Positions 1,424-43,966 of a DNA stretch of 44,457 nt are shown here, in pieces. Numbering within the stretch: the stretch's first letter is position 1; each line of letters opens with the position of its first letter. This DNA comes from a virus (Duplodnaviria; Heunggongvirae; Uroviricota; Caudoviricetes): IMG/VR virus record IMGVR_UViG_2531839331_000012. The stretch is one strand, 5' to 3'. The notes below the pieces were generated by a model that was given only the letters and a program-made list of their open reading frames with translations, was not told where the DNA came from and searched no databases. The position numbers and the translations under genes were made by a program.

Positions 1424-2489
1424 TGATTTCAATTTTGTCCCACTCCCTGCCTCTGTCATCACGATACTGTGATGCCATGGTGTCCGACTTATGCCCGAGA
1501 AGATGTTGAGCAAACTTATCGCTTATCTGCTTCTCATAGAGTCTTGCAGACAAACTGCGCAACTCGTGAAAGGTAGGCGGATCCCCTTCGAAGGAAAGAC
1601 CTGATGCTTTTCGTGCGCGCATAAAATACCTTGATACTGTGCCGGATGAAAGCGGTTCGCGACGAGTAGATGCAATTATGGTTTCTCCGCCAAGAATCTC
1701 TTTGCATTTATCAAGTGTTTCCTTCATTGATATTCCGAGAGCATCAACATGCAATGCTGTTGGGATGGCAATTTTTACGCCTGTTTTGCTTTGCTCGACA
1801 TAAAGATATCCATCTACGATATCAGACCACTTCATTTCGCATAAATCACCAACTCGTTGCCCGGTAACAACAGCCAGTTCCATTGCAAGTCTGAGCCAAC
1901 ATGGTGATGATTCTGCTGCTTGATAAATTTTCAGGTATTCGTCAGCCGTAAGTCTTGATCTCCTTACCTCTGATTTTGCTGCGCGAGTGGCAGCGACAGG
2001 GGTTGTTGTTATATGGCCTTCAGCTATTGCCTCTCGGAATGCATCGCTCAGTGTTGATCTGATTAACTTGGCTGACGCCGCCTTGCCCTCGTCTATGTAT
2101 CCATTGAGCATTGCCGCAATTTCTTTTGTGGTGATGTCTTCAAGTGGAGCATCAGGCAGACCCCTCCTTATTGCTTTAATTTTGCTCATGTAATTTATGA
2201 GTGTCTTCTGCTTGATTCCTCTGCTGGCCAGGATTTTTTCGTAGCGATCAAGCCATGAATGTAACGTAACGGAATTATCACTGTTGATTCTCGCTGTCAG
2301 AGGCTTGTGTTTGTGTCCTGAAAATAACTCAATGTTGGCCTGTATGGCTTCAGTGATTGCGATTCGCCTGTCTCTGCCTAATCCAAACTCTTTACCCGTC
2401 CTTGGGTCCCTGTAGCAGTAATATCCATTGTTTCTTATATAAAGGTTAGGGGGTAAATCCCGGCGCTCATGACTTCGCCTTCTTCCCAT
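1419..2489 (-). CDS. int: Integrase (tyrosine recombinase), lambda Int
   Basis: 356-aa ORF matching recalled lambda Int sequence; adjacent to attL. Confidence 0.97.
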   Translation of the reverse strand: MGRRRSHERRDLPPNLYIRNNGYYCYRDPRTGKEFGLGRDRRIAITEAIQANIELFSGHKHKPLTARINSDNSVTLHSWLDRYEKILASRGIKQKTLINYMSKIKAIRRGLPDAPLEDITTKEIAAMLNGYIDEGKAASAKLIRSTLSDAFREAIAEGHITTTPVAATRAAKSEVRRSRLTADEYLKIYQAAESSPCWLRLAMELAVVTGQRVGDLCEMKWSDIVDGYLYVEQSKTGVKIAIPTALHVDALGISMKETLDKCKEILGGETIIASTRREPLSSGTVSRYFMRARKASGLSFEGDPPTFHELRSLSARLYEKQISDKFAQHLLGHKSDTMASQYRDDRGREWDKIEIK

Positions 2490-2685
2490 TTCTGATCCTC
2501 TTCAAAAGGCTACCTGTTACTGGTCGATTTAAGTCAACCTTTACCGCTGATTCGTGGAACAGATACTCTCTTCCATCCTTAACCGGAGGAGGGAATATCC
2601 TGCACTCGCGTACCCATCGACGAACTGTTTCAAGGCTTCTTGGGCGTCGCTGGCGTGCGTTCCACTCCTGAAGTGTCAAGTACAT
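2467..2685 (-). CDS. xis: Excisionase Xis
   Basis: 72-aa ORF matching recalled lambda Xis; overlaps int start as in lambda. Confidence 0.95.
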   Translation of the reverse strand: MYLTLQEWNARQRRPRSLETVRRWVRECRIFPPPVKDGREYLFHESAVKVDLNRPVTGSLLKRIRNGKKAKS

Positions 2686-2724
2686 CGCAAAGTCTCCGCA
2701 ATTACACGCAAGAAAAAACCGCCA

Positions 2725-2892
2725 TCAGGCGGCTTGGTGTTCTTTCAGTTCTTCAATTCGAATATTGGTTACGTCTGCATGTGCTATCTGCGCCCACAGC
2801 ATCCAGTGGTCATAGCAGTCGCTGATGTTCTCGGCTTCGATAACTCTGTTGAATGGTTCTCCATTCCATTCACCTGTGACTCGGAAGTGCAT
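2725..2892 (-). CDS. Hypothetical protein, lambda orf55 equivalent
   Basis: 55-aa ORF (MHFRVTGEWNGEPFNRVIEAENISDCYDHWMLWAQIAHADVTNIRIEELKEHQAA) hand-translated; below ORF-track cutoff; same position and length as lambda's 168-nt ORF after xis. Confidence 0.5.
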   Translation of the reverse strand: MHFRVTGEWNGEPFNRVIEAENISDCYDHWMLWAQIAHADVTNIRIEELKEHQAA

Positions 2893-2930
2893 TTATCATC
2901 TCCATAAAACAAAACCCGCCGTAGCGAGTT

Positions 2931-2962
2931 CAGATAAAAGAAATCCTCGTCAGTGCGAGGAT
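2931..2962 (-). terminator. Putative rho-independent terminator on minus strand (7-bp stem ATCCTCG/CGAGGAT followed by T-rich tract)
   Basis: Hairpin 2943-2962 plus A-run 2936-2942 on + strand (T-run on minus) read in sequence. Confidence 0.4.
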
Positions 2963-3206
2963 GCTGTTCATTGCTGCTATACACTTTTTTGCTCTCAACG
3001 TAAGCGGTAGCCCATTCTGTTGGGTTGGTGCAGTTGCTTTTAGGAAATGCTATTTACCCCTTAAATGTCGGCTGAAAGAGCTAAAATCCATGCAAAAAAT
3101 TTACGCAATTTTGTGTATTATTGTGCAGTAAGTAATGAGCTATTTTCTGCGCAAAAAATGGATGGTAAATTTGTCCGGGTCAGGAAAAATTTTATGGGCG
3201 CTAAAC

Positions 3207-3737
3207 ATGAAAAAAGATTCGTATCCTTATTTGATTTGCATGACAGTTTCAGGGCTGATCTTTATTTTCCTTTTCTTCTGGTGGCGGGCAGATATCTACA
3301 GGGTCACGTTTCTTAATCAGAGTATATCCCACTATTACATTCTGTTTAGCATGGGAATAGCTTTTCTGTTATCTCTGTTTTGGGTTAAGAAGGGGATAGT
3401 AAAACAAAGAGGCTGGAAGAGTCTGTCAGCATACCTTAAGGTTTATGCAGGGATGTGCATATTTGCAGGATTTTTTCTGATTATACCCCTTACGACACTA
3501 ACTTATTTTTTGCCTGGAGAGACATCGTCTTATGTTGCACCGTATCGGTATACTTCCGGTAGTTCAAAAAGTTGTTCTGGAGCTGAGGTGGATGACCCCG
3601 ATCTACATGAGAATATTCGCATTTGCTATCCGTATGGCAATTATGAGTACGATAATATTATCTATGTTGAAAAGAAAATTAATATATTAGGTGCGGTAGT
3701 GACATATGCACAGACCGCGCGTGATGATACTGAATGA
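3207..3737 (+). CDS. Hypothetical integral membrane protein (3 predicted N-terminal TM helices plus Cys-containing C-terminal domain); AT-rich moron in ea8.5/ea22 slot
   Basis: 176-aa ORF from ATG 3207 (ORF track gives longer 3135 start); strongly hydrophobic segments; opposite orientation to flanking leftward operon; AT-rich. Confidence 0.55.
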   Translation: MKKDSYPYLICMTVSGLIFIFLFFWWRADIYRVTFLNQSISHYYILFSMGIAFLLSLFWVKKGIVKQRGWKSLSAYLKVYAGMCIFAGFFLIIPLTTLTYFLPGETSSYVAPYRYTSGSSKSCSGAEVDDPDLHENIRICYPYGNYEYDNIIYVEKKINILGAVVTYAQTARDDTE

Positions 3738-3771
3738 TATAGTATATAGCGGGCAAGTTTTAGTTAATTTA

Positions 3772-3795
3772 TCGAGGTAATATAATTTACCTCGA
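3772..3795. terminator. Perfect 9-bp-stem hairpin (TCGAGGTAA-TATAAT-TTACCTCGA) downstream of membrane-protein gene; candidate terminator
   Basis: Inverted repeat read directly. Confidence 0.4.
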
Positions 3796-3947
3796 CTCGT
3801 TTGTTCTGGTATTAATATTTCGCTTTACGACCGATTTTTATCTGATGATATCATGCGGTTTTCATATACTGACTTACTGTCTTTTCTCCGTTAGCGATTT
3901 TCTCCTGCTCAGCGATGATTTTATCTTTGGCTTTTAGTTAATTTCGC

Positions 3948-4169
3948 TCACTTCGAACCTCTCTGTTTACTGATAAGCTCCAGATCCTCCTGGCAACTTG
4001 CACAAGTCCGACAACCCTGAACGACCAGGCGTCTTCGTTCATCTATCGGATCGCCACACTCACAACAATGAGTGGCAGATATAGCCTGGTGGTTCAGGCG
4101 GCGCATTTTTATTGCTGTGTTGCGCTGTAATTCTTCAATTTCTGATGCTGAATCAATGATGTCTGCCAT
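3948..4169 (-). CDS. DksA/TraR-family C4 zinc-finger protein
   Basis: 73-aa ORF with CxxC-x17-CxxC (CECGD...CRTCASC) typical of TraR/DksA C4 zinc fingers; SD GGAAG upstream. Confidence 0.7.
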   Translation of the reverse strand: MADIIDSASEIEELQRNTAIKMRRLNHQAISATHCCECGDPIDERRRLVVQGCRTCASCQEDLELISKQRGSK

Positions 4170-4224
4170 CTTCCATTAATCCCTGAATTGTTGGTTAATA
4201 CGCTTGAGGGTGAATGCGAATAAT

Positions 4225-4245
4225 AAAAAAGGAGCCTGTAGCTCC
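4225..4245 (-). terminator. Putative rho-independent terminator on minus strand (GGAGCCTGTAGCTCC hairpin followed by T6)
   Basis: Hairpin 4231-4245 and A6 4225-4230 on + strand. Confidence 0.45.
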
Positions 4246-4267
4246 CTGATGATTTTGCTTTTCATGT

Positions 4268-4579
4268 TCATCGTTCCTTAAAGACGCCGTTTAACATGCC
4301 GATTGCCAGGCTTAAATGAGTCGGTGTGAATCCCATCAGCGTTACCGTTTCGCGGTGCTTCTTCAGTACGCTACGGCAAATGTCATCGACGTTTTTATCC
4401 GGAAACTGCTGTCTGGCTTTTTTGATTTCAGAATTAGCCTGACGGGCAATGCTGCGAAGGGCGTTTTCCTGCTGAGGTGTCATTGAACAAGTCCCATGTC
4501 GGCAAGCATAAGCACACAGAATATGAAGCCCGCTGCCAGAAAAATGCATTCCGTGGTTGTCATACCTGGTCTCTCTCAT
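4268..4579 (-). CDS. Hypothetical protein in lambda orf61 position (start uncertain; ATG at 4483 would give 72 aa)
   Basis: 103-aa ORF; upstream end coincides with lambda orf61 start by collinearity with orf63/orf60a. Confidence 0.4.
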   Translation of the reverse strand: MRETRYDNHGMHFSGSGLHILCAYACRHGTCSMTPQQENALRSIARQANSEIKKARQQFPDKNVDDICRSVLKKHRETVTLMGFTPTHLSLAIGMLNGVFKER

Positions 4580-4751
4580 CTGCTTCTGCTTTCGCCACCA
4601 TCATTTCCAGCTTTTGTGAAAGGGATGCGGCTAACGTATGAAATTCTTCGTCTGTTTCTACTGGTATTGGCACAAACCTGACTCCAATTTGAGCGAGGCT
4701 ATGTGCCATCTCGATACTCGTTCTTAACTCAACGGGAGATGCTTTGTGCAT
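4560..4751 (-). CDS. Hypothetical protein, lambda orf63 equivalent
   Basis: 63-aa ORF collinear with lambda orf63. Confidence 0.7.
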   Translation of the reverse strand: MHKASPVELRTSIEMAHSLAQIGVRFVPIPVETDEEFHTLAASLSQKLEMMVAKAEADERDQV

Positions 4752-4912
4752 ACAGCTCCCCGTTTATTATTTATCTCCTCAGCCAGCCGCTGTGCTTTCA
4801 GGGGATTTCGGATAACAGAAAGGCCGGGAAATACCCAGCCTCGCTTCGTAACGGAGTAGACGAAAGTGATCGTGCCTACGCGGATATTATCGTGAGGATG
4901 TTTCATCGCCAT
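4724..4912 (-). CDS. Hypothetical protein, lambda orf60a equivalent
   Basis: 62-aa ORF collinear with lambda orf60a. Confidence 0.7.
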
Positions 4913-5583
4913 TGCTCCCCAAATACAAAACCAATTTCAGCCAGTGCCTCGTCCATTTTTTCGATGAACTCCGGCACCATCTCGTCAAAACTCGCCATGT
5001 AATTTTCATCCCGCTCAACCACGACATAATGCAGGCCTTCACGCTTCATTCGTGGGTCATAGTTGGCAAAGTACCAGGCATCTTTTCGCGTCACCCACAT
5101 GCTGTACTGCACCTGGGCCATGTAAGCTGACTTTATGGCCTCGAAACCACCGAGCCGGAATTTCATGAAATCCCGGGAGGTAAACGGGCATTTCAGTTCA
5201 AGGCCGTTGCCGTCACTGCATAAACCATCGGGAGAGCAGGCGGTGCGCATACTTTCGTCGCGATAGATGATCGGGGATTCAGTAACATTCACGCCGGAAG
5301 TAAACTCAAACAGGGCTCTGGCGTCGTTCTCGTACTGTTTTCCCCAGGCCAGCGCCTTAGCATTAACTTCCGGAGCCACACCGGTGCAAACCTCAGCCAG
5401 CAGGGTGTGGAAGTAGGACATTTTCATGTCAGGCCACTTCTTTCCTGAGCGGGGCTTTGCTATCACGTTGTGAACTTCTGAAGCGGTGATGACGCCGAGC
5501 CGTAATTTGTGCCATGCATCATCCCCCTGTTCGACAGCTCTCACGTCGATCCCGGTACGCTGCAGGATAATGTCCGGTGTCAT
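4903..5583 (-). CDS. exo: Lambda exonuclease (Red alpha)
   Basis: 226-aa ORF matching recalled lambda Exo. Confidence 0.97.
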
Positions 5584-7034: not shown

Positions 7035-7224
7035 AACTAAGCCGCCTCGTTGAAGCGACTAAGGTATGAAATGTTGAGTTAATTTCAGCTGGTCACACCG
7101 ACGTTCACGCGTCCGTTTCACCCCTCGCACTCCCCGAAGCCTGCTGAAATTCAAACTGCGGATCTAAGCGGTCATCGCAACGGTGAATCAGGTAGTTGCC
7201 GTATCGTTGTGTTGTTGCGATGAA

Positions 7225-7300
7225 CTTATTTAAAACTATAGTTGTTTTATCGTCAACAACAAAAGTTGTTTTATTGGTTGTTTTAGATATAACTGGTTGT
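7225..7300 (-). promoter_or_regulatory. Putative pL promoter with OL operators: -35 TTGACG (complement of 7251-7256), 17-bp spacer, -10 TTAAAT (complement of 7228-7233); repeated GTTGTT/AACAAC half-sites
   Basis: Near-identical to the pR promoter at 8284-8312; five GTTGTT hexamers in inverted/everted arrangement. Confidence 0.6.
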
Positions 7301-7392
7301 ATTTAGGATGGATTTATTTTGTGACTTGAATCGCATAGCGATAACTGAAGCGAGGTTATGGTGGTTTTTTTAACGGTGTGTGTGATGAGGGG

Positions 7393-7424
7393 AGGGCAAA
7401 AGAAAACCCGGCACGGTGACCGGG
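7393..7424 (-). terminator. Rho-independent terminator downstream of repressor gene (CCCGG-loop-CCGGG followed by TTTTCTTTTG on minus strand)
   Basis: GC-rich hairpin 7407-7424 and A-rich 7395-7406 on + strand. Confidence 0.55.
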
Positions 7425-7545
7425 ATTCTTACGCCGTTAGGTAAAGATATTATTGCGGTGGCTTAATATTACTACCTAGAGCAAAGATAGGAATTAGTTC
7501 TTTACTGAATGAGCACAATGCCCAGTTGATAATTTTTAATTGGTA

Positions 7546-8235
7546 CTACCCATGCTTCCTATATGTCTGCGGCATGCTCCCAATAACCTTACCGAAGATG
7601 AACACCCGGTTCATCTCGTCTTTCTCGATCGGGTCCCACGGTGAGTAGCTTTTGTTATCAGAGATGACCAGCAGCTTATTCTTCATCATTTGCAGGCGCT
7701 TTACATGGGCTGTGTCGTCGTACAGAAACGCATAGATACCATCACCGTCGAAAGATTTAACTGTGATATCAACGAACAGCAGATCACCTGGTTCGATCGT
7801 TCCTGACATGCTGTCACCACGCACGTTAATGATGCGGATATTTTCCGCCTTCCTACCATCGAACATGTGACGAGCATCGTCAAACGAGTACTCAACCGAG
7901 CGTAGAACTTCTACAAACTCACGGTTGATGACTCCCGGCCCAGCACTGACTTCTATATCAAGAACGTCAATCTTGAAGTATTTGGAATGGCTGACAGTTG
8001 ATTGTATTGGTTGCACTGTACTGTCTGACATATTTCCAACGCCAGAAGATAACCATTCTGCGCGCACACCCAAAGCGTTCGCGATCTCCACGATTTTAGT
8101 TGTTTGATTAGCTTTCCCTGTTTCGATTTTCTGAATAGCAGCCTGGCTAACCCCGACCAAATCCCCAAGCGCCTTTTGTGTAAGGCCTCGCGCTAATCTG
8201 GCTTCTTTAAGTCTTTCTGAGAGTGTTGTTTTCAT
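7546..8235 (-). CDS. CI-like prophage repressor (N-terminal XRE HTH, C-terminal S24 LexA-like autopeptidase)
   Basis: 229 aa from ATG 8235 (MKTTLSERLKE...); HTH region, Ala-Gly cleavage site (VSAGPG), GDSM serine and downstream Lys; divergent from cro. Confidence 0.85.
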   Translation of the reverse strand: MKTTLSERLKEARLARGLTQKALGDLVGVSQAAIQKIETGKANQTTKIVEIANALGVRAEWLSSGVGNMSDSTVQPIQSTVSHSKYFKIDVLDIEVSAGPGVINREFVEVLRSVEYSFDDARHMFDGRKAENIRIINVRGDSMSGTIEPGDLLFVDITVKSFDGDGIYAFLYDDTAHVKRLQMMKNKLLVISDNKSYSPWDPIEKDEMNRVFIFGKVIGSMPQTYRKHG

Positions 8236-8276
8236 AGTCCAAATGTACAACCAAGGTTTTATTCCATCAAACGAAA

Positions 8277-8312
8277 ATGGTTGTTGACTAAAAACAACCA
8301 TAGTTTTAATCT
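8277..8312 (+). promoter_or_regulatory. OR/pR: 25-bp palindrome ATGGTTGTT-N7-AACAACCAT (8277-8301) overlapping pR -35 TTGACT (8284-8289) and -10 TAATCT (8307-8312)
   Basis: Read directly; SD GGAGG 8330-8334 precedes cro ATG 8340. Confidence 0.65.
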
Positions 8313-8339
8313 TGATTCAAATTAACCACGGAGGTTGTT

Positions 8340-8570
8340 ATGAACCCAGCTATCAAAACAGCGATCAATATCGTTGGTTCACAAAAGAAACTGGGCGCTG
8401 CTTGCGAAGTTTCACAGCAGGCCGTCTATAAGTGGCTTCACAACAAAGCAAAGGTATCCCCTGAACATGTCGGCAGCATTGTTACGGCTACTGGGGGAGT
8501 AGTGAAGGCATACCAGATTCGCCCGGATCTTCCGAAGTTGTTTCCACACACCGAAAAGAACGCAGCTTAA
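8340..8570 (+). CDS. cro: Cro-like repressor (Cro/YdaS-family HTH)
   Basis: 76-aa ORF divergent from repressor gene, strong SD; position and size. Confidence 0.75.
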   Translation: MNPAIKTAINIVGSQKKLGAACEVSQQAVYKWLHNKAKVSPEHVGSIVTATGGVVKAYQIRPDLPKLFPHTEKNAA

Positions 8571-8582
8571 ATTTCCATTTCA

Positions 8583-8595
8583 CGCTCTTTAACAA
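8583..8595 (+). promoter_or_regulatory. boxA-like antitermination element CGCTCTTTAACAA (nutR position)
   Basis: Exact match to the rrn/lambdoid boxA consensus GCTCTTTAACAA; no obvious boxB hairpin follows. Confidence 0.5.
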
Positions 8596-8639
8596 TAAGC
8601 AATCAACTTAACAGTCAATTCAAACTAAAGGAGTCAATT

Positions 8640-9179
8640 ATGCAACCACTTACATACCAACAGACTAGCGGATTTAGCCCGACTGCGGTGATAAATCGTT
8701 CTCAAACAAAACAGGTGCCAGGCCACGAAAAAATCCGTGATGCCGTCCGCGCCTGGTCGGCTGTAGATAATCAGGATGTCGTTGCCACACTCATTGTGAA
8801 TGAGTATCGGGAGCAGGGCGGCGGCACCATCGATTTCCCTGATGATGTCAGCCGTGCACGCCAGAAGCTGTTCCGCTTCCTCGATAACAAATTCGATTCT
8901 GAAAAATACCGAAATAATGTGCGTGAACTGACCCCGGCAATTCTGGCGGTACTACCGCTGGAATATCGCGGTTACCTGGTTGAGCAGGATAGCTTCATGG
9001 CTAGGTTGGCTGAAATGGAAAAGGAACTCAGTGAGGCAAAACAGGCTGTCATTCTCAACGCACCACGCCACCAGAAACTGAAGGAAATTAGTGAAGGTAT
9101 TGTGTCGATGTTTCGTGTGGACCCAGATCTGGCTGGTCCATTGATGGCGATGGTTACTACCATGCTGGGGGCGATATGA
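8640..9179 (+). CDS. Hypothetical protein in cII position (possible CII-analogue regulator)
   Basis: 179-aa ORF with strong SD AAGGAG; not lambda CII; assignment by position only. Confidence 0.4.
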   Translation: MQPLTYQQTSGFSPTAVINRSQTKQVPGHEKIRDAVRAWSAVDNQDVVATLIVNEYREQGGGTIDFPDDVSRARQKLFRFLDNKFDSEKYRNNVRELTPAILAVLPLEYRGYLVEQDSFMARLAEMEKELSEAKQAVILNAPRHQKLKEISEGIVSMFRVDPDLAGPLMAMVTTMLGAI

Positions 9180-11847: not shown

Positions 11848-13374
11848 ATGAAAAAAGCCATAGCATATATGCGATTTTCATCACCAGGTCAGATGTCTGG
11901 TGATTCATTAAACCGCCAGAGAAGGCTTATTACTGAATGGCTAAAGGTAAATAGTGATTATTACCTTGATACCGTAACGTATGAAGATTTGGGGTTAAGC
12001 GCATTCAATGGAAAGCATGCACAATCAGGAGCTTTTTCGGAATTTTTAGATGCTATAGAACATGGTTATATATTGCCAGGGACTACATTGTTAGTTGAAA
12101 GTCTGGACAGACTTTCAAGAGAAAAAGTCGGTGAAGCGATTGAGCGTCTGAAATTGATTTTGAATCACGGTATTGATGTTATAACTCTTTGCGATAATAC
12201 AGTCTATAATATTGACTCATTGAATGAGCCATATTCATTAATAAAAGCCATACTTATAGCACAAAGGGCAAATGAAGAAAGCGAGATAAAGTCAAGTCGG
12301 GTTAAATTATCATGGAAGAAAAAACGGCAGGATGCACTGGAGTCAGGCACGATTATGACGGCGTCTTGTCCGAGATGGCTCTCATTGGATGACAAAAGAA
12401 CGGCTTTTGTTCCAGACCCCGACAGGGTGAAAACTATTGAGCTAATTTTTAAACTCAGGATGGAAAGGCGCTCATTGAATGCAATAGCCAAGTATTTAAA
12501 TGATCATGCTGTAAAGAATTTCTCAGGAAAAGAAAGTGCATGGGGACCTTCTGTAATTGAAAAATTATTAGCGAATAAAGCTCTGATAGGTATATGCGTA
12601 CCTTCATATCGTGCAAGAGGTAAAGGAATAAGTGAAATCGCTGGCTATTATCCCAGAGTCATATCAGATGATTTGTTTTACGCTGTGCAGGAAATTCGGT
12701 TGGCACCTTTTGGTATTAGCAATAGTAGCAAAAATCCTATGTTGATAAATCTACTTCGAACAGTTATGAAGTGCGAGGCTTGTGGTAATACCATGATTGT
12801 TCATGCGGTATCTGGAAGTTTGCATGGCTATTATGTTTGTCCGATGAGAAGACTGCATCGATGTGACAGGCCATCAATAAAGAGAGATTTGGTTGATTAT
12901 AATATCATTAATGAGTTGCTTTTTAATTGTAGTAAAATCCAACCAGTTGAAAACAAGAAAGATGCTAATGAAACTTTAGAGTTGAAAATTATTGAGCTCC
13001 AGATGAAAATTAATAATTTAATTGCTGCATTATCTGTTGCGCCTGAAGTTACCGCTATAGCAGAAAAAATCAGAGTATTAGATAAGGAATTACGAAGGGC
13101 TTCTGTATCATTAAAAACTTTGAAGAGTAAAGCGGTGAGTTCACTTGGTGATTTTCATGCTATTGACTTAACCAGTAAAAATGGGCGAGAGCTATGTCGT
13201 ACACTTGCCTATAAAACATTCGAAAAAATCATAATCAATACAGATAATAAAACCTGTGATATCTATTTTATGAATGGCATTGTTTTTAAACACTATCCTT
13301 TAATGAAAACAATATCTGCCCAGCAGGCGATAAGTACTCTCAAATATATGGTTGATGGTGAGGTTTATTTTTGA
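11848..13374 (+). CDS. ybcK: Large serine recombinase (DLP12 YbcK-like)
   Basis: 508-aa ORF; N-terminal resolvase-type catalytic domain (YMRFSSPGQ... serine), Cys-rich zinc-ribbon region; AT-rich. Confidence 0.85.
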   Translation: MKKAIAYMRFSSPGQMSGDSLNRQRRLITEWLKVNSDYYLDTVTYEDLGLSAFNGKHAQSGAFSEFLDAIEHGYILPGTTLLVESLDRLSREKVGEAIERLKLILNHGIDVITLCDNTVYNIDSLNEPYSLIKAILIAQRANEESEIKSSRVKLSWKKKRQDALESGTIMTASCPRWLSLDDKRTAFVPDPDRVKTIELIFKLRMERRSLNAIAKYLNDHAVKNFSGKESAWGPSVIEKLLANKALIGICVPSYRARGKGISEIAGYYPRVISDDLFYAVQEIRLAPFGISNSSKNPMLINLLRTVMKCEACGNTMIVHAVSGSLHGYYVCPMRRLHRCDRPSIKRDLVDYNIINELLFNCSKIQPVENKKDANETLELKIIELQMKINNLIAALSVAPEVTAIAEKIRVLDKELRRASVSLKTLKSKAVSSLGDFHAIDLTSKNGRELCRTLAYKTFEKIIINTDNKTCDIYFMNGIVFKHYPLMKTISAQQAISTLKYMVDGEVYF

Positions 13375-17020: not shown

Positions 17021-18103
17021 TTAGAACTGGTAAACCATACCTACAGCAACGATATCATCGGTAGCAACGCCAGATGCTTTCGTGAAATCGCTCTTATCAA
17101 TCAGGTTGATTTTGTAATCAACAAAAGTGGACATATTTTTGTTGAAGTAATAGGTTGCACCTACATCAATATATTCAACCAGGTCCTGATCACCCCACGC
17201 ACCCAAGTCTTTTCCTTTAGATTGCAGGTAAGCAACGGACGGACGCAGACCGAAGTCGAACTGATATTGTGCAACTACTTCGAAGTTTTGTGCTTTGTTG
17301 GCAATATGGTTATTACCAAAAACAGTCATGTTCTGGGTTTCAGAATAGGTGGTAGCCAGATAGATGTTGTTCGCATCATATTTCAGACCAGCTGCCCATA
17401 CTTCAGCATTTTGACCAGATGCATTCAGGCTGTTGTTACCGTAGATAACCTGATTATTAGTGCGGTCAGATTTAGCATAGGTTGCACCTACACCGAATCC
17501 TTCATACTCATAAGTAGTGGAGAAACCGAAACCATCACCATTAGCTTCAGTTACGTCAGTGCGGTCATTTTTACCCTGATACTGAGCAGCAAAGTTCAGA
17601 CCATCAACCAGACCAAAGAAGTCATTGTTACGATAAGTTGCAACACCTGTGGTGCGACCAGTCATGAATACATCTGTTTGGGTCCAGGTATCGCCACCGA
17701 ATTCTGGCAGAACGTCGGTCCATGCACCAATATCGTATGCTACACCGTAGTTACGGCCATAATCGATGGAGCCGTAGTCACCGAATTTCAGGCCAGCGAA
17801 GGCAAGACGGGTTTTATCTTTGGAGGAACCTTGAGATTCAGCGCGGTTGCCTTTGAATTCATATTCCCACTGACCGAAACCAGTCAGTTGATCGTTGATT
17901 TGGGTTTCACCTTTGAAGCCAAGACGGGCATAAGTAGTATCACCATCATCTGCATCATTAGAGGAGAAGTAGTGCTTAGCATTAACTTTCCCGTACAGAT
18001 CCAGCTTGTTACTGTCTTTATTATAAATTTCAGCTGCCTGAGCAGACATCGCCATCAGTACTGATGCAGCTACAGCAGAAATTGCCACTGTTAATTTTTT
18101 CAT
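17021..18103 (-). CDS. nmpC: Outer-membrane porin NmpC (OmpC/OmpF family), prophage moron
   Basis: 360 aa from ATG 18103 with signal peptide [24 protein letters not shown]-terminal Phe; intact here. Confidence 0.9.
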
Positions 18104-18334
18104 CGTGAGCCCTTTTTTTGAACTATTATTAAAAAATGATGTCACTGCGCGATAAATATTCATCTAATCAATGTGATTATTTCAAGATGTAAGTTTTGGT
18201 TTCTCATTTGATTTGTGAAGTAGATCTCTATTTTTATCTGAACTTTTTCTATCGAATCCTATTCATGGCTCTTGGCTGAATAAAAATAAATCTATTAGCC
18301 AATTTATATTAATGGCTGTTATTTATAAGTGCTC

Positions 18335-20358: not shown

Positions 20359-20769
20359 TTAGTGCGGAAATATTTGTGTAGTGTTCTGAATGTTCTCAGT
20401 AAAGAGTAATGAATTATCAAAGGTATAGTAATACCTTTTGTTTTCGTGGATATTTGTAATCCATCTGAAAACCCCTGCTGTAGCAAGATTTTTCCTGTAT
20501 TCGTAAAATGATAACTCTCCTGATTTGAATCCTTTTAAGGTGGCTTCTATAAGGCATTTATTTTTTGAAAATCTTACATTTACAACCTTACCCTGTCCTT
20601 TTATTAAAACCGTATTATCGTTTTCAAGAACAAGATGAATATTCTCTGTAGCTAAATAGTAAATGTAATGTGAGACATTGTGACGTTTTAGTTCAGAATA
20701 AAACCAGTGATAGTTTAAATTATTTCGCACTTTATCGAATATTTGTTTAAAAATGGCAACCTGAGCCAT
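20359..20769 (-). CDS. ybcV: YbcV-like hypothetical protein
   Basis: 136 aa from ATG 20769 (SD GGAAGG); AT-rich; resembles recalled DLP12 YbcV. Confidence 0.6.
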
Positions 20770-20825
20770 TGTAGTACCTTCCATGTGATATGAGGGGCGT
20801 AGTCTGCACGATTATCTAAATTGCT

Positions 20826-28458: not shown

Positions 28459-28854
28459 ATGACGAAAGATGAACTGATTGCCCGTCTTCAGGTGCTGGGT
28501 GAGCAACTGAACCGTGATGTCAGCCTGACGGGGACGAAAGAAGAACTGGTGCTCCGTGTGGCAGAGCTGGAAGAGGAGCTTGATGACACGGATGACGCTG
28601 CCGGTCAGGACACATCTGTCAGCCCGGAAAATGCGCTGACCGGACATGAAAATGAGGTGGTATCAGCGCAGCCGGATACCGTGATTGATACGGCTGCTCT
28701 GGTCACGGTCGTGGCACTGGTGACGCTGCATACTGATGCACTTCACGCCACGCGGGATGAGCCTGTGGCATTTGTGCTGCCGGGAACGGCGTTTCGTGTC
28801 TCTGCCGGTGTGGCAGCCGAAATGACAGAACATGGCCTGGCCAGAATGCAATAA
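28459..28854 (+). CDS. FI: DNA-packaging/head assembly protein FI
   Basis: 131 aa from ATG 28459, lambda gpFI. Confidence 0.93.
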   Translation: MTKDELIARLQVLGEQLNRDVSLTGTKEELVLRVAELEEELDDTDDAAGQDTSVSPENALTGHENEVVSAQPDTVIDTAALVTVVALVTLHTDALHATRDEPVAFVLPGTAFRVSAGVAAEMTEHGLARMQ

Positions 28855-28865
28855 CGGGAGGCGCT

Positions 28866-29219
28866 GTGGCTGATTCCGATAACCTGTTCGATGCTGCCAT
28901 TGCCCGCGCCGATGAAACGATACGCGGGTACATGGGAACGTCAGCCACCATGACATCCGGTGAGCTGTCCGGTGCTGTGATACGTGGTGTTTTTGATGAC
29001 CCTGAAAATATCAGCTATGCCGGACAGGGGGTGCGCGTTGAAGGCTCCAGCCCGTCCCTGTTTGTCCGGACTGATGATGTGCGGCAGCTGCGGCGTGGAG
29101 ACACACTGACCATCGGCGAGGAAAACTTCTGGGTGGACCGGATTTCGCCGGATGATGGCGGAAGCTGTCATCTCTGGCTTGGGCGGGGCGTACCGCCTGC
29201 CGTTAACCGTCGCCGCTGA
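28866..29219 (+). CDS. FII: Head-tail connector protein FII
   Basis: 117 aa, GTG start, lambda gpFII. Confidence 0.93.
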   Translation: MADSDNLFDAAIARADETIRGYMGTSATMTSGELSGAVIRGVFDDPENISYAGQGVRVEGSSPSLFVRTDDVRQLRRGDTLTIGEENFWVDRISPDDGGSCHLWLGRGVPPAVNRRR

Positions 29220-29230
29220 AGGGGGGATGT

Positions 29231-29809
29231 ATGGCCATAAAAGGTCTTGAGCAGGCCGTTGAAAACCTCAGTCGTATCAGCAAAACGGCGGTGCCCGGTG
29301 CGTCAGCAATGGCCATTAACCGCGTTGCGTCATCCGCGATATCGCAGTCTGCGTCACAGGTTGCCCGTGAGACAAGGGTACGCCGGAAACTGGTAAAGGA
29401 AAGGGCCAGGCTGAAAAGGGCCACGGTTAAAAATCCGCAGGCCAGAATCAGGGTTAACCGGGGGGATTTGCCCGTAATCAAGCTGGGTAACGCGCGGGTT
29501 GTCCTGTCCCGACGCAGGCGTCGTAAAAAGGGGCAGCGTTCATCCCTGAAAGGTGGCGGCAGCGTGCTTGTGGTGGGAAACCGTCGTATTCCCGGCGCGT
29601 TTATTCAGCAACTGAAAAATGGCCGCTGGCATGTCATGCAGCGTGTGGCCGGGAAAAACCGTTACCCCATTGATGTGGTGAAAATCCCGATGGCGGTGCC
29701 GCTGACCACGGCGTTTAAACAGAATATTGAGCGGATACGGCGTGAGCGTCTTCCGAAAGAGCTGGGCTATGCGCTGCAGCATCAACTGAGGATGGTAATA
29801 AAGCGATGA
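29231..29809 (+). CDS. Z: Tail completion protein Z
   Basis: 192 aa, lambda gpZ. Confidence 0.95.
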   Translation: MAIKGLEQAVENLSRISKTAVPGASAMAINRVASSAISQSASQVARETRVRRKLVKERARLKRATVKNPQARIRVNRGDLPVIKLGNARVVLSRRRRRKKGQRSSLKGGGSVLVVGNRRIPGAFIQQLKNGRWHVMQRVAGKNRYPIDVVKIPMAVPLTTAFKQNIERIRRERLPKELGYALQHQLRMVIKR

Positions 29810-30201
29810 AACATACTGAACTCCGTGCAGCCGTACTGGATGCACTGGAGAAGCATGACACCGGGGCGACGTTTTTTGATGGTCGCCCCGCTGTTTTTGA
29901 TGAGGCGGATTTTCCGGCAGTTGCCGTTTATCTCACCGGCGCTGAATACACGGGCGAAGAGCTGGACAGCGATACCTGGCAGGCGGAGCTGCATATCGAA
30001 GTTTTCCTGCCTGCTCAGGTGCCGGATTCAGAGCTGGATGCGTGGATGGAGTCCCGGATTTATCCGGTGATGAGCGATATCCCGGCACCGTCAGATTTGA
30101 TCACCAGTATGGTGGCCAGTGGCTATGACTACCGGCGCGACGATGATGCGGGCCTGTGGAGTTCTGCCGATCTGACTTATGTCATTACCTATGAAATGTG
30201 A
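29806..30201 (+). CDS. U: Tail terminator protein U
   Basis: 131 aa, lambda gpU. Confidence 0.95.
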
Positions 30202-30208
30202 GGACGAT

Positions 30209-30949
30209 ATGCCTGTACCAAATCCAGCAATACCGGTGAAAGGTGCCGGAACCACCCTGTGGGTTTATAACGGGAGCGGCGACCCTTATGCGAACCCGCT
30301 TTCAGACGTTGACTGGTCGCGTCTGGCTAAAGTTAAAGACCTGACGCCCGGCGAACTGACCGCTGAGTCCTATGACGACAGTTATCTCGATGATGAAGAT
30401 GCGGACTGGACCGCGACCGGGCAGGGGCAGAAATCTGCCGGAGATACCAGCTTCACGCTGGCGTGGATGCCCGGAGAGCAGGGGCAGCAGGCGCTGCTGG
30501 CGTGGTTTAATGAAGGGGATACCCGTGCCTATAAAATCCGCTTCCCGAACGGCACGGTCGATGTGTTCCGTGGCTGGGTCAGCAGTATCGGTAAGGCGGT
30601 GACGGCGAAGGAAGTGATCACCCGTACGGTGAAGGTCACCAATGTGGGCCGTCCGTCAATGGCAGAAGATCGCAGTACGGTGACGGCGGCAACCGGCATG
30701 ACCGTGACGCCTGCCAGCACTTCGGTGGTGAAAGGGCAGAGCACCACGCTGACCGTGGCATTCCAGCCGGAAGGCGCAACCGACAAGAGCTTCCGTGCGG
30801 TGTCTGCGGATAAAACAAAAGCCACCGTGTCGGTCAGTGGTATGACCATCACCGTGAAAGGTGTTGCTGCAGGCAAGGTCAACATTCCGGTTGTATCCGG
30901 TAATGGTGAACTTGCTGTGGTTGCAGAAATCACCGTCACCGACAGTTAA
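30209..30949 (+). CDS. V: Major tail tube protein V
   Basis: 246 aa from ATG 30209, lambda gpV incl. C-terminal Ig-like domain. Confidence 0.95.
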
Positions 30950-30964
30950 TCCGGAGAGTCAGCG

Positions 30965-31387
30965 ATGTTCCTGAAAACCGAATCATTTGAATATAACGGT
31001 GTGAGCGTCACGCTTTCTGAACTGTCAGCCCTGCAGCGAATTGAGCATCTCGCCCTGCTGAAACGACAGGCAGAACAGGCGGGATCCAGTCTCAATCGAC
31101 AGGGGAGCGTGGAAGATCTCGTCAGAACCGGTGCTTTTCTGGTGGCGATGTCCCTGTGGCATAGCCATCCGCAGAAGACAAAGATGCCGTCCATGAATGA
31201 AGCCGTTAAACAAATTGAGCAGGAAGTGCTTACCACCTGGCCCACAGAGGCAATTTCTCATGCTGAAAACGTGGTGTACCGGCTGTCCGGTATGTATGAG
31301 TTTGTGGTGAATGATGCTCCTGAACAGACAGAGGACGCCGGGCCTGCAGAGCCTGTTTCTGCGGGAAAGTGTTCGATGGTGAGCTGA
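30965..31387 (+). CDS. G: Tail assembly chaperone G
   Basis: 140 aa, lambda gpG. Confidence 0.95.
   Translation: MFLKTESFEYNGVSVTLSELSALQRIEHLALLKRQAEQAGSSLNRQGSVEDLVRTGAFLVAMSLWHSHPQKTKMPSMNEAVKQIEQEVLTTWPTEAISHAENVVYRLSGMYEFVVNDAPEQTEDAGPAEPVSAGKCSMVS
31363..31369 (+). promoter_or_regulatory. Programmed -1 ribosomal frameshift slippery heptamer G GGA AAG (G to G-T fusion)
   Basis: GGGAAAG at 3' end of G with T ORF in -1 frame, as in lambda. Confidence 0.85.
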
Positions 31388-31803
31388 GTTTTGCCCTGAA
31401 ACTGGCGCGAGAGATGGGGCGACCCGACTGGCGTGCCATGCTTGCCGGGATGTCATCCACGGAGTATGCCGACTGGCACCGCTTTTACAGTACCCATTAT
31501 TTTCATGATGTTCTGCTGGATATGCACTTTTCCGGGCTGACGTACACCGTGCTCAGCCTGTTTTTCAGCGATCCGGATATGCATCCGCTGGATTTCAGTC
31601 TGCTGAACCGGCGTGAGGCTGACGAAGAGCCTGAAGATGATGTGCTGATGCAGAAAGCGGCAGGGCTTGCCGGAGGCGTCCGCTTTGGCCCGGACGGGAA
31701 TGAAGTTATCCCCGCTTCCCCGGATGTGGCGGACATGACGGAGGATGACGTAATGCTGATGACAGTATCAGAAGGGATCGCAGGAGGAGTCCGGTATGGC
31801 TGA
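31369..31803 (+). CDS. T: Tail assembly chaperone T (expressed as G-T frameshift fusion)
   Basis: 144-aa -1-frame ORF overlapping G end; lambda gpT. Confidence 0.9.
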   Translation: MFDGELSFALKLAREMGRPDWRAMLAGMSSTEYADWHRFYSTHYFHDVLLDMHFSGLTYTVLSLFFSDPDMHPLDFSLLNRREADEEPEDDVLMQKAAGLAGGVRFGPDGNEVIPASPDVADMTEDDVMLMTVSEGIAGGVRYG

Positions 31804-43459: not shown

Positions 43460-43966
43460 ATGGAAAAGTTTTCATTGGAGTTCAAAAAGGTAGTATCAGA
43501 AAAGTACCTGGAGGGAGAGTTGAGTCTGAAATCTGTAGCAAGGATGTACGGTATCAGTCCCTGCACAGTAAGAAAATGGGCTTATGCCTATCGGGAACAT
43601 GGGATAAGCATACTTACGGGTAAAAAAGGACGCTATTCTGCTGAGTTAAAACTCACAGTAGTAAAAGAAGTCGTGGATGACTGTTTTTCTGTTCGTGAAG
43701 TAGCGGTAAAACACGGAATACCAGCCTTTGGTACTGTATGCAACTGGCTTGAAAAATATAGAAAATATGGCGAAGATGCTTTCATTCGAAAAAATAAAAA
43801 GAGTATTCCTGTGCCGGATAAAAGCGCCATTTCAGCACCACCACTACCAACATTAACCAAAGATGAGAGAGAAGAACTTGAACAACTCAGGGTCGAGAAT
43901 GCCTACTTAAAAAAGCTGAAAGCCTTGGTTCAGCAGAAAACATGCTCAACGTTCAGGAAAAAGTGA
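43460..43966 (+). CDS. IS3-family transposase OrfA (HTH DNA-binding subunit)
   Basis: 168-aa ORF with HTH and leucine-zipper-like C-terminus; SD GAGG; slippery A AAA AAG at 43909-43915. Confidence 0.8.
   Translation: MEKFSLEFKKVVSEKYLEGELSLKSVARMYGISPCTVRKWAYAYREHGISILTGKKGRYSAELKLTVVKEVVDDCFSVREVAVKHGIPAFGTVCNWLEKYRKYGEDAFIRKNKKSIPVPDKSAISAPPLPTLTKDEREELEQLRVENAYLKKLKALVQQKTCSTFRKK

What the first reader, a model, noticed from the sequence alone, without database searches (positions are those of the whole stretch)
2893..3800. Oppositely oriented, AT-rich membrane-protein gene replacing lambda ea8.5/ea22 next to xis
Collinearity with lambda (orf55 on one side, orf63/orf60a/exo on the other) shows the ea8.5-ea22 block has been swapped for different cargo. 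The main gene (3207-3737) runs against the leftward early operon. It is AT-rich and encodes three strongly hydrophobic helices followed by a Cys-containing soluble tail of about 70 aa. A perfect 9-bp-stem hairpin (3772-3795) lies just downstream, and a minus-strand terminator (2931-2962) insulates it from orf55/xis/int. This architecture is typical of lysogen-expressed morons such as superinfection exclusion or abortive infection proteins. The function is unknown.
Basis: partly seen in the sequence, partly recalled or inferred. Interest (0 to 1): 0.6.

Follow-up and report, generated by a model that had tools for sequence, protein, structure and literature searches.

The report
Uncharacterised prophage membrane gene, phage-434 type
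A small self-contained gene for an inner-membrane protein with a conserved outward-facing domain has replaced two lambda genes beside xis. The same gene sits in the anti-phage hotspot of P2-like prophages, so it is a good but unproven candidate for a protein that protects the lysogen at the cell envelope.

Summary
A 973-bp AT-rich segment (window 2963-3935, 38% GC against 51% for the window) replaces lambda ea8.5 and ea22. It carries one plus-strand gene (3207-3737, 176 aa), followed by a perfect 9-bp hairpin.

The DNA is 98.6% identical to classical phage 434 and 99.6% identical to mEp332. The gene is in O157:H7 Sakai prophage Sp3 as ECs_0804 and in 981 of 5426 complete E. coli genomes. It is everywhere annotated as hypothetical.

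The predicted protein has three membrane helices and a 73-residue OB-like beta-barrel with two invariant cysteines, predicted to face the periplasm. It is under strong purifying selection (dN/dS about 0.13).

It matches nothing in Pfam, NCBIfam or PADLOC, and no solved fold convincingly. P22 SieA, MliC and NfeD membership were tested and rejected.

New evidence from context:
- Homologues at 51-79% identity occupy the gpQ-gpA (old/tin) defence hotspot of P2-like prophages. A published table lists one as the untested "3 TM" system #4 (470 loci).
- The cassette carries its own conserved promoter-like block.
- More distant homologues are fixed chromosomal genes in Enterobacter.

Best reading, at about 0.4 confidence: a lysogen-expressed moron that acts on the periplasmic side, most likely in superinfection exclusion. 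The function is not proven.

The parts
2963..3935 (.). AT-rich foreign segment that replaces lambda 29356-30379 (ea8.5 and ea22)
   Evidence: BLASTN against lambda puts the break points at 2962/2963 and 3935/3936. GC is 38% against 51% for the window. The segment is 98.6% identical to phage 434 and 99.6% to mEp332.
3039..3933 (+). Mobile cassette shared with the P2-like prophage hotspot (upstream region, gene, hairpin)
   Evidence: Window 3070-3827 is 76.6% identical to E. coli P2-type loci L022, L032 and L033, with weaker matches at 3039-3074 and 3894-3933. Salmonella P2-type loci match 3074/3111-3705 and 3265-3748.
3143..3171 (+). Inferred sigma-70 promoter of the extended -10 type: -35 TTTTCT (3143-3148), TG (3163-3164), -10 TAAATT (3166-3171). 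The expected transcription start is near 3178.
   Evidence: TGnTAA(A/T/G)TT is kept at the same distance from the ATG in lambda-type, four P2-type and Cedecea copies. The block 3143-3175 is 31/33 identical to the E. coli P2-type copy, where third codon positions are 61% identical; against Salmonella it is 26/33, against 48%. The consensus scan did not report it because the -35 matches only 3 of 6. No experiment supports it.
3207..3737 (+). CDS of 176 aa: an inner-membrane protein with three TM helices and a periplasmic beta-barrel domain (434 CPT_434_36; Sakai ECs_0804)
   Evidence: Conserved start. dN/dS 0.13. AlphaFold2 pLDDT 86.9. No hit in Pfam, NCBIfam or PADLOC; phrog_1416, of unknown function, matches only the C-terminal 88 aa.
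3228..3515 (+). Membrane part: TM1 aa 8-26 (3228-3284), conserved periplasmic loop 1 'WWRxxIYRVTFL' (aa 25-36), TM2 aa 44-62 (3336-3392), basic cytoplasmic loop aa 63-80, TM3 aa 81-103 (3447-3515)
   Evidence: Hydropathy. K/R density is 0.20-0.23 in the N-terminus and loop 2, against 0.14 in loop 1 and 0.10 in the C-terminal domain, across 20 members. The model places a beta-strand at aa 34-36 in loop 1, and the only other strands lie in the C-terminal domain.
3516..3734 (+). C-terminal domain, aa 104-176: a five-stranded OB-like barrel with invariant Cys123 (3573-3575) and Cys140 (3624-3626) and invariant motifs SCSGAxV, I(R/K)ICxPxG and K(R/K)xNxLG
3772..3795 (+). Perfect 9-bp hairpin, a probable weak intrinsic terminator or 3' stabiliser of the cassette transcript
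   Evidence: The E. coli P2-type copy keeps it with one compensatory A-T to G-C change, one wobble pair and one mismatch. It is absent from the Salmonella P2-type flank.
2912..2966 (-). Two leftward terminator-like hairpins (2912-2931; 2943-2962 = tL4 of phage 434). These are backbone, not cargo.
   Evidence: M60848 annotates tL4 at the position equivalent to window 2936-2966. The DNA is shared with lambda up to 2962.
3934..3951 (-). Remnant of ea22: its GTG start overlaps the orf73 stop and is followed by 5 codons (VSEIN) and a stop
   Evidence: Translation compared with lambda Ea22, which begins VSEINSQAL.
2961..3131 (+). 56-aa ORF annotated in 434 and mEp332 as a putative membrane protein; probably not a gene
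   Evidence: It has no counterpart in any other context. Only its last ~20 codons lie in conserved DNA, and that stretch is non-coding repeat sequence elsewhere. PGAP does not call it.

Best explanation
This is a moron: an autonomous one-gene cassette (promoter-like block, 176-aa ORF, hairpin) that lambdoid and P2-like temperate phages of Enterobacteriaceae exchange.

What is shown:
- It is foreign to the lambda backbone and transcribed against the leftward early (pL) operon.
- It encodes a real protein under purifying selection.
- The family is confined to Enterobacteriaceae.
- In four of the family lineages examined (51-79% identical to the window protein) it occupies the P2 gpQ-gpA (old/tin) hotspot.

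What is inferred:
- The protein inserts into the inner membrane with its N-terminus in the cytoplasm and its C-terminus outside.
- Conserved loop 1 and the OB-like C-terminal domain form one periplasmic module, stapled by a Cys123-Cys140 disulfide.
- The cassette is transcribed from its own extended -10 promoter in the repressed prophage.

Proposed mechanism. The protein has only about 25 cytoplasmic residues, so it cannot sense or act on cytoplasmic phage components. Its conserved periplasmic module most likely binds a conserved envelope component, either a host inner-membrane or periplasmic factor that incoming phages need or a conserved part of a phage's DNA-delivery apparatus. This would block genome entry of competing phages, which is superinfection exclusion. 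The target phage class is unknown.
For: - Cargo replacement and base composition.
- The cassette moves as a unit between lambda-like and P2-like prophages.
- The promoter-like block is conserved far above neutral expectation.
- Purifying selection is strongest on the soluble domain.
- Topology is supported by K/R bias, two invariant Cys, and the loop-1 strand joining the C-terminal sheet.
- Homologues lie between portal gpQ and replication gpA in E. coli, Salmonella (two lineages), Klebsiella and another P2-like prophage. Another lies at a prophage end beside an integrase and an HNH protein.
- Rousset et al. 2022 (PMC9122126) define that locus as an anti-phage hotspot that holds old and tin. 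Their Table S5B lists a homologue as system #4, '3 TM', 470 occurrences.
- The gene is intact in decayed prophages: O157:H7 Sp3 and CP-933K have a broken integrase and a truncated bet.
- Known exclusion proteins such as P22 SieA are likewise small three-TM inner-membrane proteins expressed from the prophage (PMC10883804).
Against: - There is no functional test and no homology to any exclusion or defence family.
- The P2 hotspot also holds non-defence cargo such as partition systems and the cytolethal distending toxin (CDT). Only 15-32% of unknown P2-hotspot proteins are predicted antiviral by machine learning (PMC13586616).
- Enterobacter species carry a syntenic, vertically inherited chromosomal orthologue, which fits a general envelope function as well.
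- The periplasmic domain is strongly conserved rather than diversifying.
- No neighbour in the P2 loci matches a PADLOC model.
- The gene was not in the supplementary tables of the Vassallo 2022 functional selection.
- From general knowledge, 434 lysogens plate heteroimmune lambda normally, so lambda is not the target.
Confidence: 0.4

Rival explanations
1. It is a lysogenic-conversion envelope factor unrelated to phage entry. The periplasmic domain would protect or modify the host envelope, for example by conferring tolerance to periplasm-acting toxins, bacteriocins, type VI effectors, lysozyme or stress. This would be analogous in logic to lambda bor and lom.
For: - A syntenic chromosomal orthologue sits beside the same GGDEF gene in at least six Enterobacter species, evolving only moderately faster than its neighbour (67-97% against 82-87% identity).
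- Singleton chromosomal copies occur in Klebsiella, Cedecea, Citrobacter and Pseudescherichia.
- The periplasmic domain is strongly conserved.
- The P2 hotspot also carries virulence and maintenance cargo.
- The gene is retained in pathogen prophage remnants.
Against: - Nothing links it to any known resistance or immunity family. The MliC/PliC lead failed.
- It recurs in phage accessory hotspots, and its orientation and architecture are typical of exclusion genes.
- No toxin or effector partner gene lies nearby.
Confidence: 0.3
2. It acts in the carrier phage's own life cycle. It could, for example, modulate lysis timing, the lysis-lysogeny decision or induction, taking over or antagonising the roles of the ea8.5 and ea22 genes it replaced.
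For: It sits in the exo-xis region, whose genes influence lambdoid development (PMC10789677). A TTGY-N6-TTGY match (3111-3124) was annotated as a CII site in the 434 record. Three 10-bp-phased TTGTGCA repeats lie upstream in P2-type copies.
Against: - It is transcribed against the early operon, so pL transcription would oppose it during lytic growth.
- The same cassette serves unrelated P2-like phages and chromosomal loci.
- The CII-type pattern occurs at chance frequency in the window (9 found, 10.2 expected).
- The protein is unrelated to Ea8.5 and Ea22.
Confidence: 0.1
3. It is an abortive-infection effector. The three-helix membrane protein would depolarise or permeabilise the inner membrane when infection is sensed, killing the cell before phage release.
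For: Membrane proteins are common suicide effectors in defence systems (discussed in PMC9122126). The hotspot context also fits.
Against: - It is a single gene with no sensor partner in any context.
- It has almost no cytoplasmic mass with which to sense infection.
- Conservation is concentrated in the periplasmic parts, not in the helices.
- It is stably carried in 18% of E. coli genomes and fixed in Enterobacter chromosomes, with no visible antitoxin.
Confidence: 0.08

Closest known systems
P22 SieA (superinfection exclusion, inner membrane)
   Same: It is a small (162-164 aa) prophage-expressed protein with three predicted TM helices in the inner membrane. It is encoded as an accessory gene with its own promoter and blocks DNA delivery (PMC10883804).
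   Different: There is no sequence relationship (hhalign probability 0.2%). SieA's conserved motif FxRYPxEAxxFNK is predicted to be cytoplasmic and is absent here. SieA lacks a folded periplasmic beta domain and always lies between genes 16 and 9 of P22-like phages.
T4 Imm and Sp; HK97 gp15; Cor and Llp lipoproteins (other entry-blocking exclusion proteins)
   Same: These are small envelope proteins that act from the membrane or periplasm on incoming phage. HK97 gp15 is also a moron and has a chromosomal homologue, YebO (from general knowledge).
   Different: There is no hit to any PHROG annotated as exclusion; the only hit is phrog_1416, of unknown function. The size, topology and fold differ.
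Cargo of the P2 gpQ-gpA hotspot (old, tin and the systems of Rousset et al. 2022)
   Same: Homologues occupy exactly this locus in E. coli, Salmonella and Klebsiella prophages. One is listed as system #4, '3 TM', with 470 occurrences.
   Different: It was never tested and has no PADLOC model. In the window the gene lies in a lambda-type exo-xis region, not in a P2 phage.
Short NfeD proteins (YuaF/YbbJ type)
   Same: The overall architecture is the same: about 175 aa, N-terminal membrane helices and a C-terminal five-stranded OB-like barrel. There is a weak BFVD hit to an NfeD-like C-terminal domain (E = 0.08).
   Different: No member hits Pfam NfeD. No SPFH (stomatin/flotillin-type) partner gene lies in any context. 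The barrel here is predicted to be periplasmic with a disulfide, whereas the NfeD barrel is cytoplasmic.
Lambda bor and lom (lysogen-expressed envelope morons)
   Same: They are AT-rich accessory genes in a lambdoid prophage that encode envelope proteins and are expressed independently of the lytic operons.
   Different: Bor and Lom are outer-membrane proteins in the late region, and there is no homology.

Membership tests
Moron (autonomous accessory cassette in a prophage) | Present or absent between otherwise collinear phages, with deviant base composition | tested here: met
   It replaces lambda ea8.5/ea22 between 97-98% identical flanks. GC is 38-39% against 51%.
Moron (autonomous accessory cassette in a prophage) | Own promoter and terminator | tested here: inconclusive
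   A conserved extended -10 block is present, and so is a hairpin with one compensatory change. The T-tract is weak and there are no transcript data.
Moron (autonomous accessory cassette in a prophage) | Expressed from the repressed prophage | not testable with these tools
P22 SieA family | Sequence homology, including the motif FxRYPxEAxxFNK | tested here: not met
   hhalign probability 0.2%. The motif is absent from the sequence.
P22 SieA family | Position between genes 16 and 9 of a P22-like prophage | tested here: not met
   Here the gene lies in the exo-xis region of a lambda-type prophage. Elsewhere it lies in the P2 hotspot or in chromosomes.
Defence systems catalogued in PADLOC | Match to a PADLOC model | tested here: not met
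   No match for the protein or for its P2-locus neighbours.
P2 gpQ-gpA hotspot anti-phage cargo | Location between portal gpQ and replication gpA | tested here: met
   Met for homologues at 51-79% identity, not for the window copy itself.
P2 gpQ-gpA hotspot anti-phage cargo | Measured protection against phage | not testable with these tools
   It is listed in Table S5B but absent from the tested systems in Table S2.
MliC/PliC lysozyme inhibitors (PF09864) | Family profile match and an eight-stranded barrel with motifs SxSGAxY and YxxxTKG | tested here: not met
NfeD-like proteins (PF01957) | Profile match and an operon with an SPFH-domain (stomatin/flotillin-type) partner | tested here: not met
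   No Pfam hit. No SPFH gene lies in any of the contexts examined.

The most novel reading that the evidence does not exclude
This would be the founding member of a new family of exclusion proteins specific to Enterobacteriaceae. The family would work from the periplasmic face, through a disulfide-stapled OB-like domain anchored by three helices, by binding a conserved host or phage component needed for genome entry. That would explain three things: why the classical phage 434, O157:H7 prophage Sp3 and about 18% of complete E. coli genomes carry it, why it is the fourth most common cargo of the P2 defence hotspot, and why Enterobacter has fixed a copy in its chromosome.
Probability: 0.3. Interest if true: 0.6.

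Novelty: new member of a known kind. Interest (0 to 1): 0.45.

Why it matters
The gene is very common. It is in 981 of 5426 complete E. coli genomes, in the textbook phage 434, in the O157:H7 Sakai and EDL933 prophages, and at 470 P2-hotspot loci in a published census. No paper found here assigns it a function, and no family database has a model for it.

If it proves to be an exclusion protein, it would add a structurally new type: a periplasmic OB-like module on a three-helix anchor. It could also point to a conserved envelope step that some phage class depends on.

If it is instead a host-envelope factor, it is a widespread lysogenic-conversion gene in pathogenic E. coli and Salmonella. Either way it is a cheap, well-defined target. 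The cassette is 0.9 kb with its own promoter and can be cloned and challenged directly.

Tried and rejected
- **Family searches.** Pfam, NCBIfam, PADLOC and PHROGs gave nothing informative for the protein and for all 20 aligned members.
- **Exhaustive profile search.** A search of 1.84 billion representatives found only 61 relatives, all of the same architecture. One spurious hit was a 3074-aa repeat protein.
- **P22 SieA homology.** Rejected.
- **NfeD-like membership.** Rejected: no profile hit and no SPFH (stomatin/flotillin-type) partner.
- **CII-dependent promoter idea.** This came from the 434 annotation. The TTGY-N6-TTGY pattern is at chance frequency in the window.
- **Upstream 56-aa ORF as a partner gene.** It is not conserved in any other context.
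- **Expression evidence from EDL933 RNA-seq.** It could not be used because the Z-number of this gene could not be established. ECs0804 and the WP accessions appear in no searchable paper.
- **Supplements.** The Vassallo 2022 tables hold no occurrence, and no supplementary files are held for the 2026 NAR paper.
Full report
**What is there**

The window is a lambda-type prophage integrated at attB-lambda. Going rightwards it has ybhC (1-1284), int (1419-2489), xis (2467-2685) and orf55 (2725-2892), all on the minus strand.

BLASTN against lambda shows 97% identity for window 2400-2962 (lambda 28793-29355) and 98% for window 3936-5000 (lambda 30380-31445). Nothing matches in between. Window 2963-3935 (973 bp) therefore replaces lambda 29356-30379, which holds ea8.5 and ea22. 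On the right side the first five codons of ea22 survive (VSEIN, then a stop), overlapping the stop of the 73-aa TraR/DksA-type gene orf73 (3948-4169, minus strand). The inserted segment is 38% GC against 51% for the window.

There are in fact two leftward hairpins, 2912-2931 and 2943-2962. The second is the tL4 terminator annotated in the 1991 phage 434 record M60848. Both lie in DNA shared with lambda, so they are backbone and not part of the cargo.

**It is a known sequence with no known function**

The region is 98.6% identical to classical phage 434 (OL657226, where the gene is CPT_434_36, 'putative membrane protein'), 99.6% to mEp332 and 98.7% to phage 2B8.

By blastn the gene is in 981 of 5426 complete E. 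coli genomes, 915 of them at 95% identity or more, always chromosomal. One is O157:H7, where it is ECs_0804 of prophage Sp3 in strain Sakai. It is intact there inside a prophage whose integrase and bet genes are broken.

It is annotated everywhere as a hypothetical protein. Its accessions and locus tags appear in no searchable paper.

**The gene model**

Three start codons are in use in databases: 3135 (200 aa; PGAP and mEp332), TTG 3171 (188 aa; the 434 record) and 3207 (176 aa). Homologues down to 42% identity all begin at the Met of 3207. In the E. coli P2-type copies the upstream 'extension' contains in-frame stop codons. That is why PGAP wrongly flags those copies as frameshifted. The 176-aa form is the real one.

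Against the E. coli P2-type copy, dN/dS is 0.13 at dS of about 1.0. It is 0.15 for the membrane part and 0.09 for the soluble domain, and in every comparison the soluble domain has about half the dN of the membrane part. This is a functional protein whose most constrained part is the C-terminal domain.

The 56-aa ORF upstream (2961-3131), annotated in 434 and mEp332, has no counterpart in any other context and is probably not a gene.

**The protein**

Hydropathy gives three helices at aa 8-26, 44-62 and 81-103. AlphaFold2 with a 20-sequence alignment gives a confident model (pLDDT 86.9). It has three long helices, a short strand in loop 1 (aa 34-36) and five strands in aa 105-171. The C-terminal domain modelled alone has pLDDT 89.3.

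Lys and Arg are enriched in the N-terminus and loop 2 (density 0.20-0.23) relative to loop 1 (0.14) and the C-terminal domain (0.10) across 20 members. Every member has exactly two cysteines in the C-terminal domain, and C123 and C140 are invariant. The loop-1 strand can only pair with the C-terminal sheet, so both must lie on the same side of the membrane.

The inferred topology is therefore N-terminus in, C-terminus out. The periplasmic module would consist of conserved loop 1 (WWRxxIYRVTFL) plus an OB-like barrel, probably stapled by a C123-C140 disulfide across the second and third strands. Only about 25 residues face the cytoplasm. The invariant residues outside the helices are almost all in these periplasmic parts. 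This topology is an inference and has not been measured.

**No family, no fold match**

- Pfam, NCBIfam and PADLOC give nothing. PHROGs gives only phrog_1416 (unknown function), which covers the C-terminal 88 residues.
- A word-indexed search found 74 clusters. An exhaustive profile search of 1.84 billion representatives found only 61, all of the same ~170-aa architecture.
- A scan of one genome for each of 185,579 species found 12 loci. Eleven are Enterobacteriaceae: Citrobacter, Enterobacter, Klebsiella and Pseudescherichia. The twelfth is a 3.5-kb contig binned into a 'Nanosynbacter' MAG that encodes a protein 100% identical to the window's, so it is an evident contaminant.
- Foldseek with the full-length model had no match with E <= 0.001 against BFVD or PDB.

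Three specific ideas were tested and rejected:
- P22 SieA homology: hhalign probability 0.2%.
- NfeD-type membership: the architecture is the same, but there is no profile hit and no SPFH (stomatin/flotillin-type) partner gene.

**Context is the informative evidence**

Four family members examined (P0039, P0044, P0048, P0054), 55-78% identical to the window protein, lie between the portal gene gpQ and the replication gene gpA of P2-like prophages. They come from E. coli (78%), Salmonella (71% and 59%) and Klebsiella michiganensis (55%). A fifth P2-like locus from viral contigs (L107) carries a copy at 51%. One further copy (47%) lies at a prophage end beside the integrase and an HNH protein.

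Rousset et al. 2022 (PMC9122126) showed that the gpQ-gpA locus, which in P2 holds the exclusion genes old and tin, is a hotspot rich in anti-phage systems. Their Table S5B lists a clear homologue of this protein as system #4: no Pfam domain, '3 TM', 470 occurrences. It is not among the systems they cloned and tested. A 2026 follow-up estimates that 15-32% of unknown P2-hotspot proteins look antiviral by machine learning (PMC13586616).

None of the neighbours in these loci match a PADLOC model. The association is therefore with the locus, not with a particular known system.

**The cassette moves as a unit**

The E. coli P2-type locus is homologous to window 3070-3827 at 76.6%, with weaker matches at 3039-3074 and 3894-3933. 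The shared DNA includes about 130 bp upstream of the ATG and the hairpin. The hairpin is retained with one compensatory A-T to G-C exchange, one wobble pair and one mismatch.

In that P2 locus the cassette is followed by a fragment of an ea22-like gene. This suggests the P2 cargo was acquired from a lambdoid exo-xis region.

Upstream, the motif TGnTAA(A/T/G)TT is kept at a fixed distance from the ATG in lambda-type, P2-type and Cedecea copies. The 33-bp block 3143-3175 is 31/33 identical to the E. coli P2-type copy, where third codon positions are only 61% identical. Against Salmonella it is 26/33, compared with 48% at third positions.

I read this block as an extended -10 promoter: -35 TTTTCT at 3143-3148, TG at 3163-3164 and -10 TAAATT at 3166-3171, with a start near 3178. 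This is an inference. The simple consensus scan does not report it because the -35 matches only 3 of 6 positions. Such a promoter is incompatible with the 3135 and 3171 start codons and compatible with 3207.

**A complication**

The most distant members (33-48% identical) are not in prophages. In at least six Enterobacter species the gene sits beside the same GGDEF gene. The orthologues are 63-97% identical to one another, and the neighbour is 82-87% identical. Klebsiella, Cedecea, Citrobacter and Pseudescherichia have singleton chromosomal copies.

So the family is not exclusively phage cargo. Its periplasmic domain is conserved rather than diversifying. This keeps open a general envelope function. 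It does not refute the moron reading, because exclusion genes with chromosomal relatives exist (HK97 gp15 and YebO, from general knowledge).

**Most likely mechanism**

A protein with a few dozen cytoplasmic residues, a conserved periplasmic module and no partner gene can only sense or act on things in the membrane or periplasm. It is carried with its own promoter, against the direction of phage operons, in accessory hotspots of two unrelated temperate phage types. It is kept intact in decaying prophages.

The best-supported reading is a lysogen-expressed protein that blocks a periplasmic or inner-membrane step of infection by competing phages. In logic this is like P22 SieA, T4 Imm and Sp, or HK97 gp15, but it is structurally unrelated to them. 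I put this at about 0.4.

The rivals are:
- An envelope conversion factor unrelated to phage, about 0.3.
- A role in the carrier phage's own development, about 0.1.
- An abortive-infection membrane effector, about 0.08. The lack of a sensor and the conservation pattern count against this one.

Classical use of 434 lysogens as hosts for heteroimmune lambda (general knowledge) implies that lambda itself is not the target.

**Verdict**

The feature is an uncharacterised but very common prophage moron: a new member of a known kind, not a new kind of system. Its value is as a cheap, well-defined experimental target.

Noticed in passing
window 17021-18163 (-): A 380-aa general porin (Pfam Porin_1, E = 4e-153) is encoded inside the prophage on the minus strand. 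It looks like an Lc/NmpC-type porin moron, another envelope-altering cargo in the same prophage.
   Followed up: partly
window 11848-13374 (+): A large serine recombinase (Resolvase, Recombinase and Zn_ribbon_recom domains, 508 aa) lies in the early-right region of a prophage that already has a lambda-type tyrosine integrase. It may mark a nested element.
   Followed up: no
window 7546-9179: The immunity region is not of the lambda or 434 type. An S24/HTH repressor (7546-8301, minus strand) faces a YdaT_toxin-like gene (8640-9179, plus strand), as in Rac-type prophages. The prophage shares only its left arm with phage 434.
   Followed up: partly
window 7050-7500: An AT-rich (38-41% GC), strongly G-skewed stretch lies between the early-left genes and the repressor and has no ORF longer than 36 aa. 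It could hold a small gene or an RNA.
   Followed up: no
L006 4894-4925; L033 about 2990-3030; window 3100-3127: Three 10-bp-phased direct repeats of ATTGTGCA lie just upstream of the inferred -35 in P2-type copies. The window has a degenerate version, which the 434 record annotates as a CII site. This may be a regulator-binding array. The CII-type pattern alone occurs at chance frequency in the window.
   Followed up: partly
L031 5635-6006; L032 3736-4107; L033 3735-4105: In E. coli P2-like prophages the cassette is followed by a truncated ea22-like gene. This suggests the P2 hotspot cargo was captured from a lambdoid exo-xis region.
   Followed up: partly
L022, L032, L033 (P2-type gene, codons 62-64): A run of six G (AAGAGGGGGGTAG) lies immediately before an internal GTG. 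N-truncated 112-aa gene calls that start at that GTG (P0131) are recorded on at least 1000 contigs.
   Followed up: no
L031 4956-5531; L032 3057-3632: RefSeq PGAP marks intact 176-aa P2-type copies as 'frameshifted' pseudogenes, because its model is the over-extended 200-aa form. This is an annotation artefact that propagates.
   Followed up: yes
L113 (JARKOR010000073.1): A 3.5-kb contig binned into a 'Candidatus Nanosynbacter' MAG encodes a protein 100% identical to the window's 176-aa protein. It is almost certainly contamination of the bin.
   Followed up: no
window 20359-20784 (-) and 43460-43966 (+): A DUF1398 gene lies on the opposite strand in the late region, and an IS-type transposase ORF lies after the tail-fibre gene. 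These are further accessory or insertion cargo.
   Followed up: no
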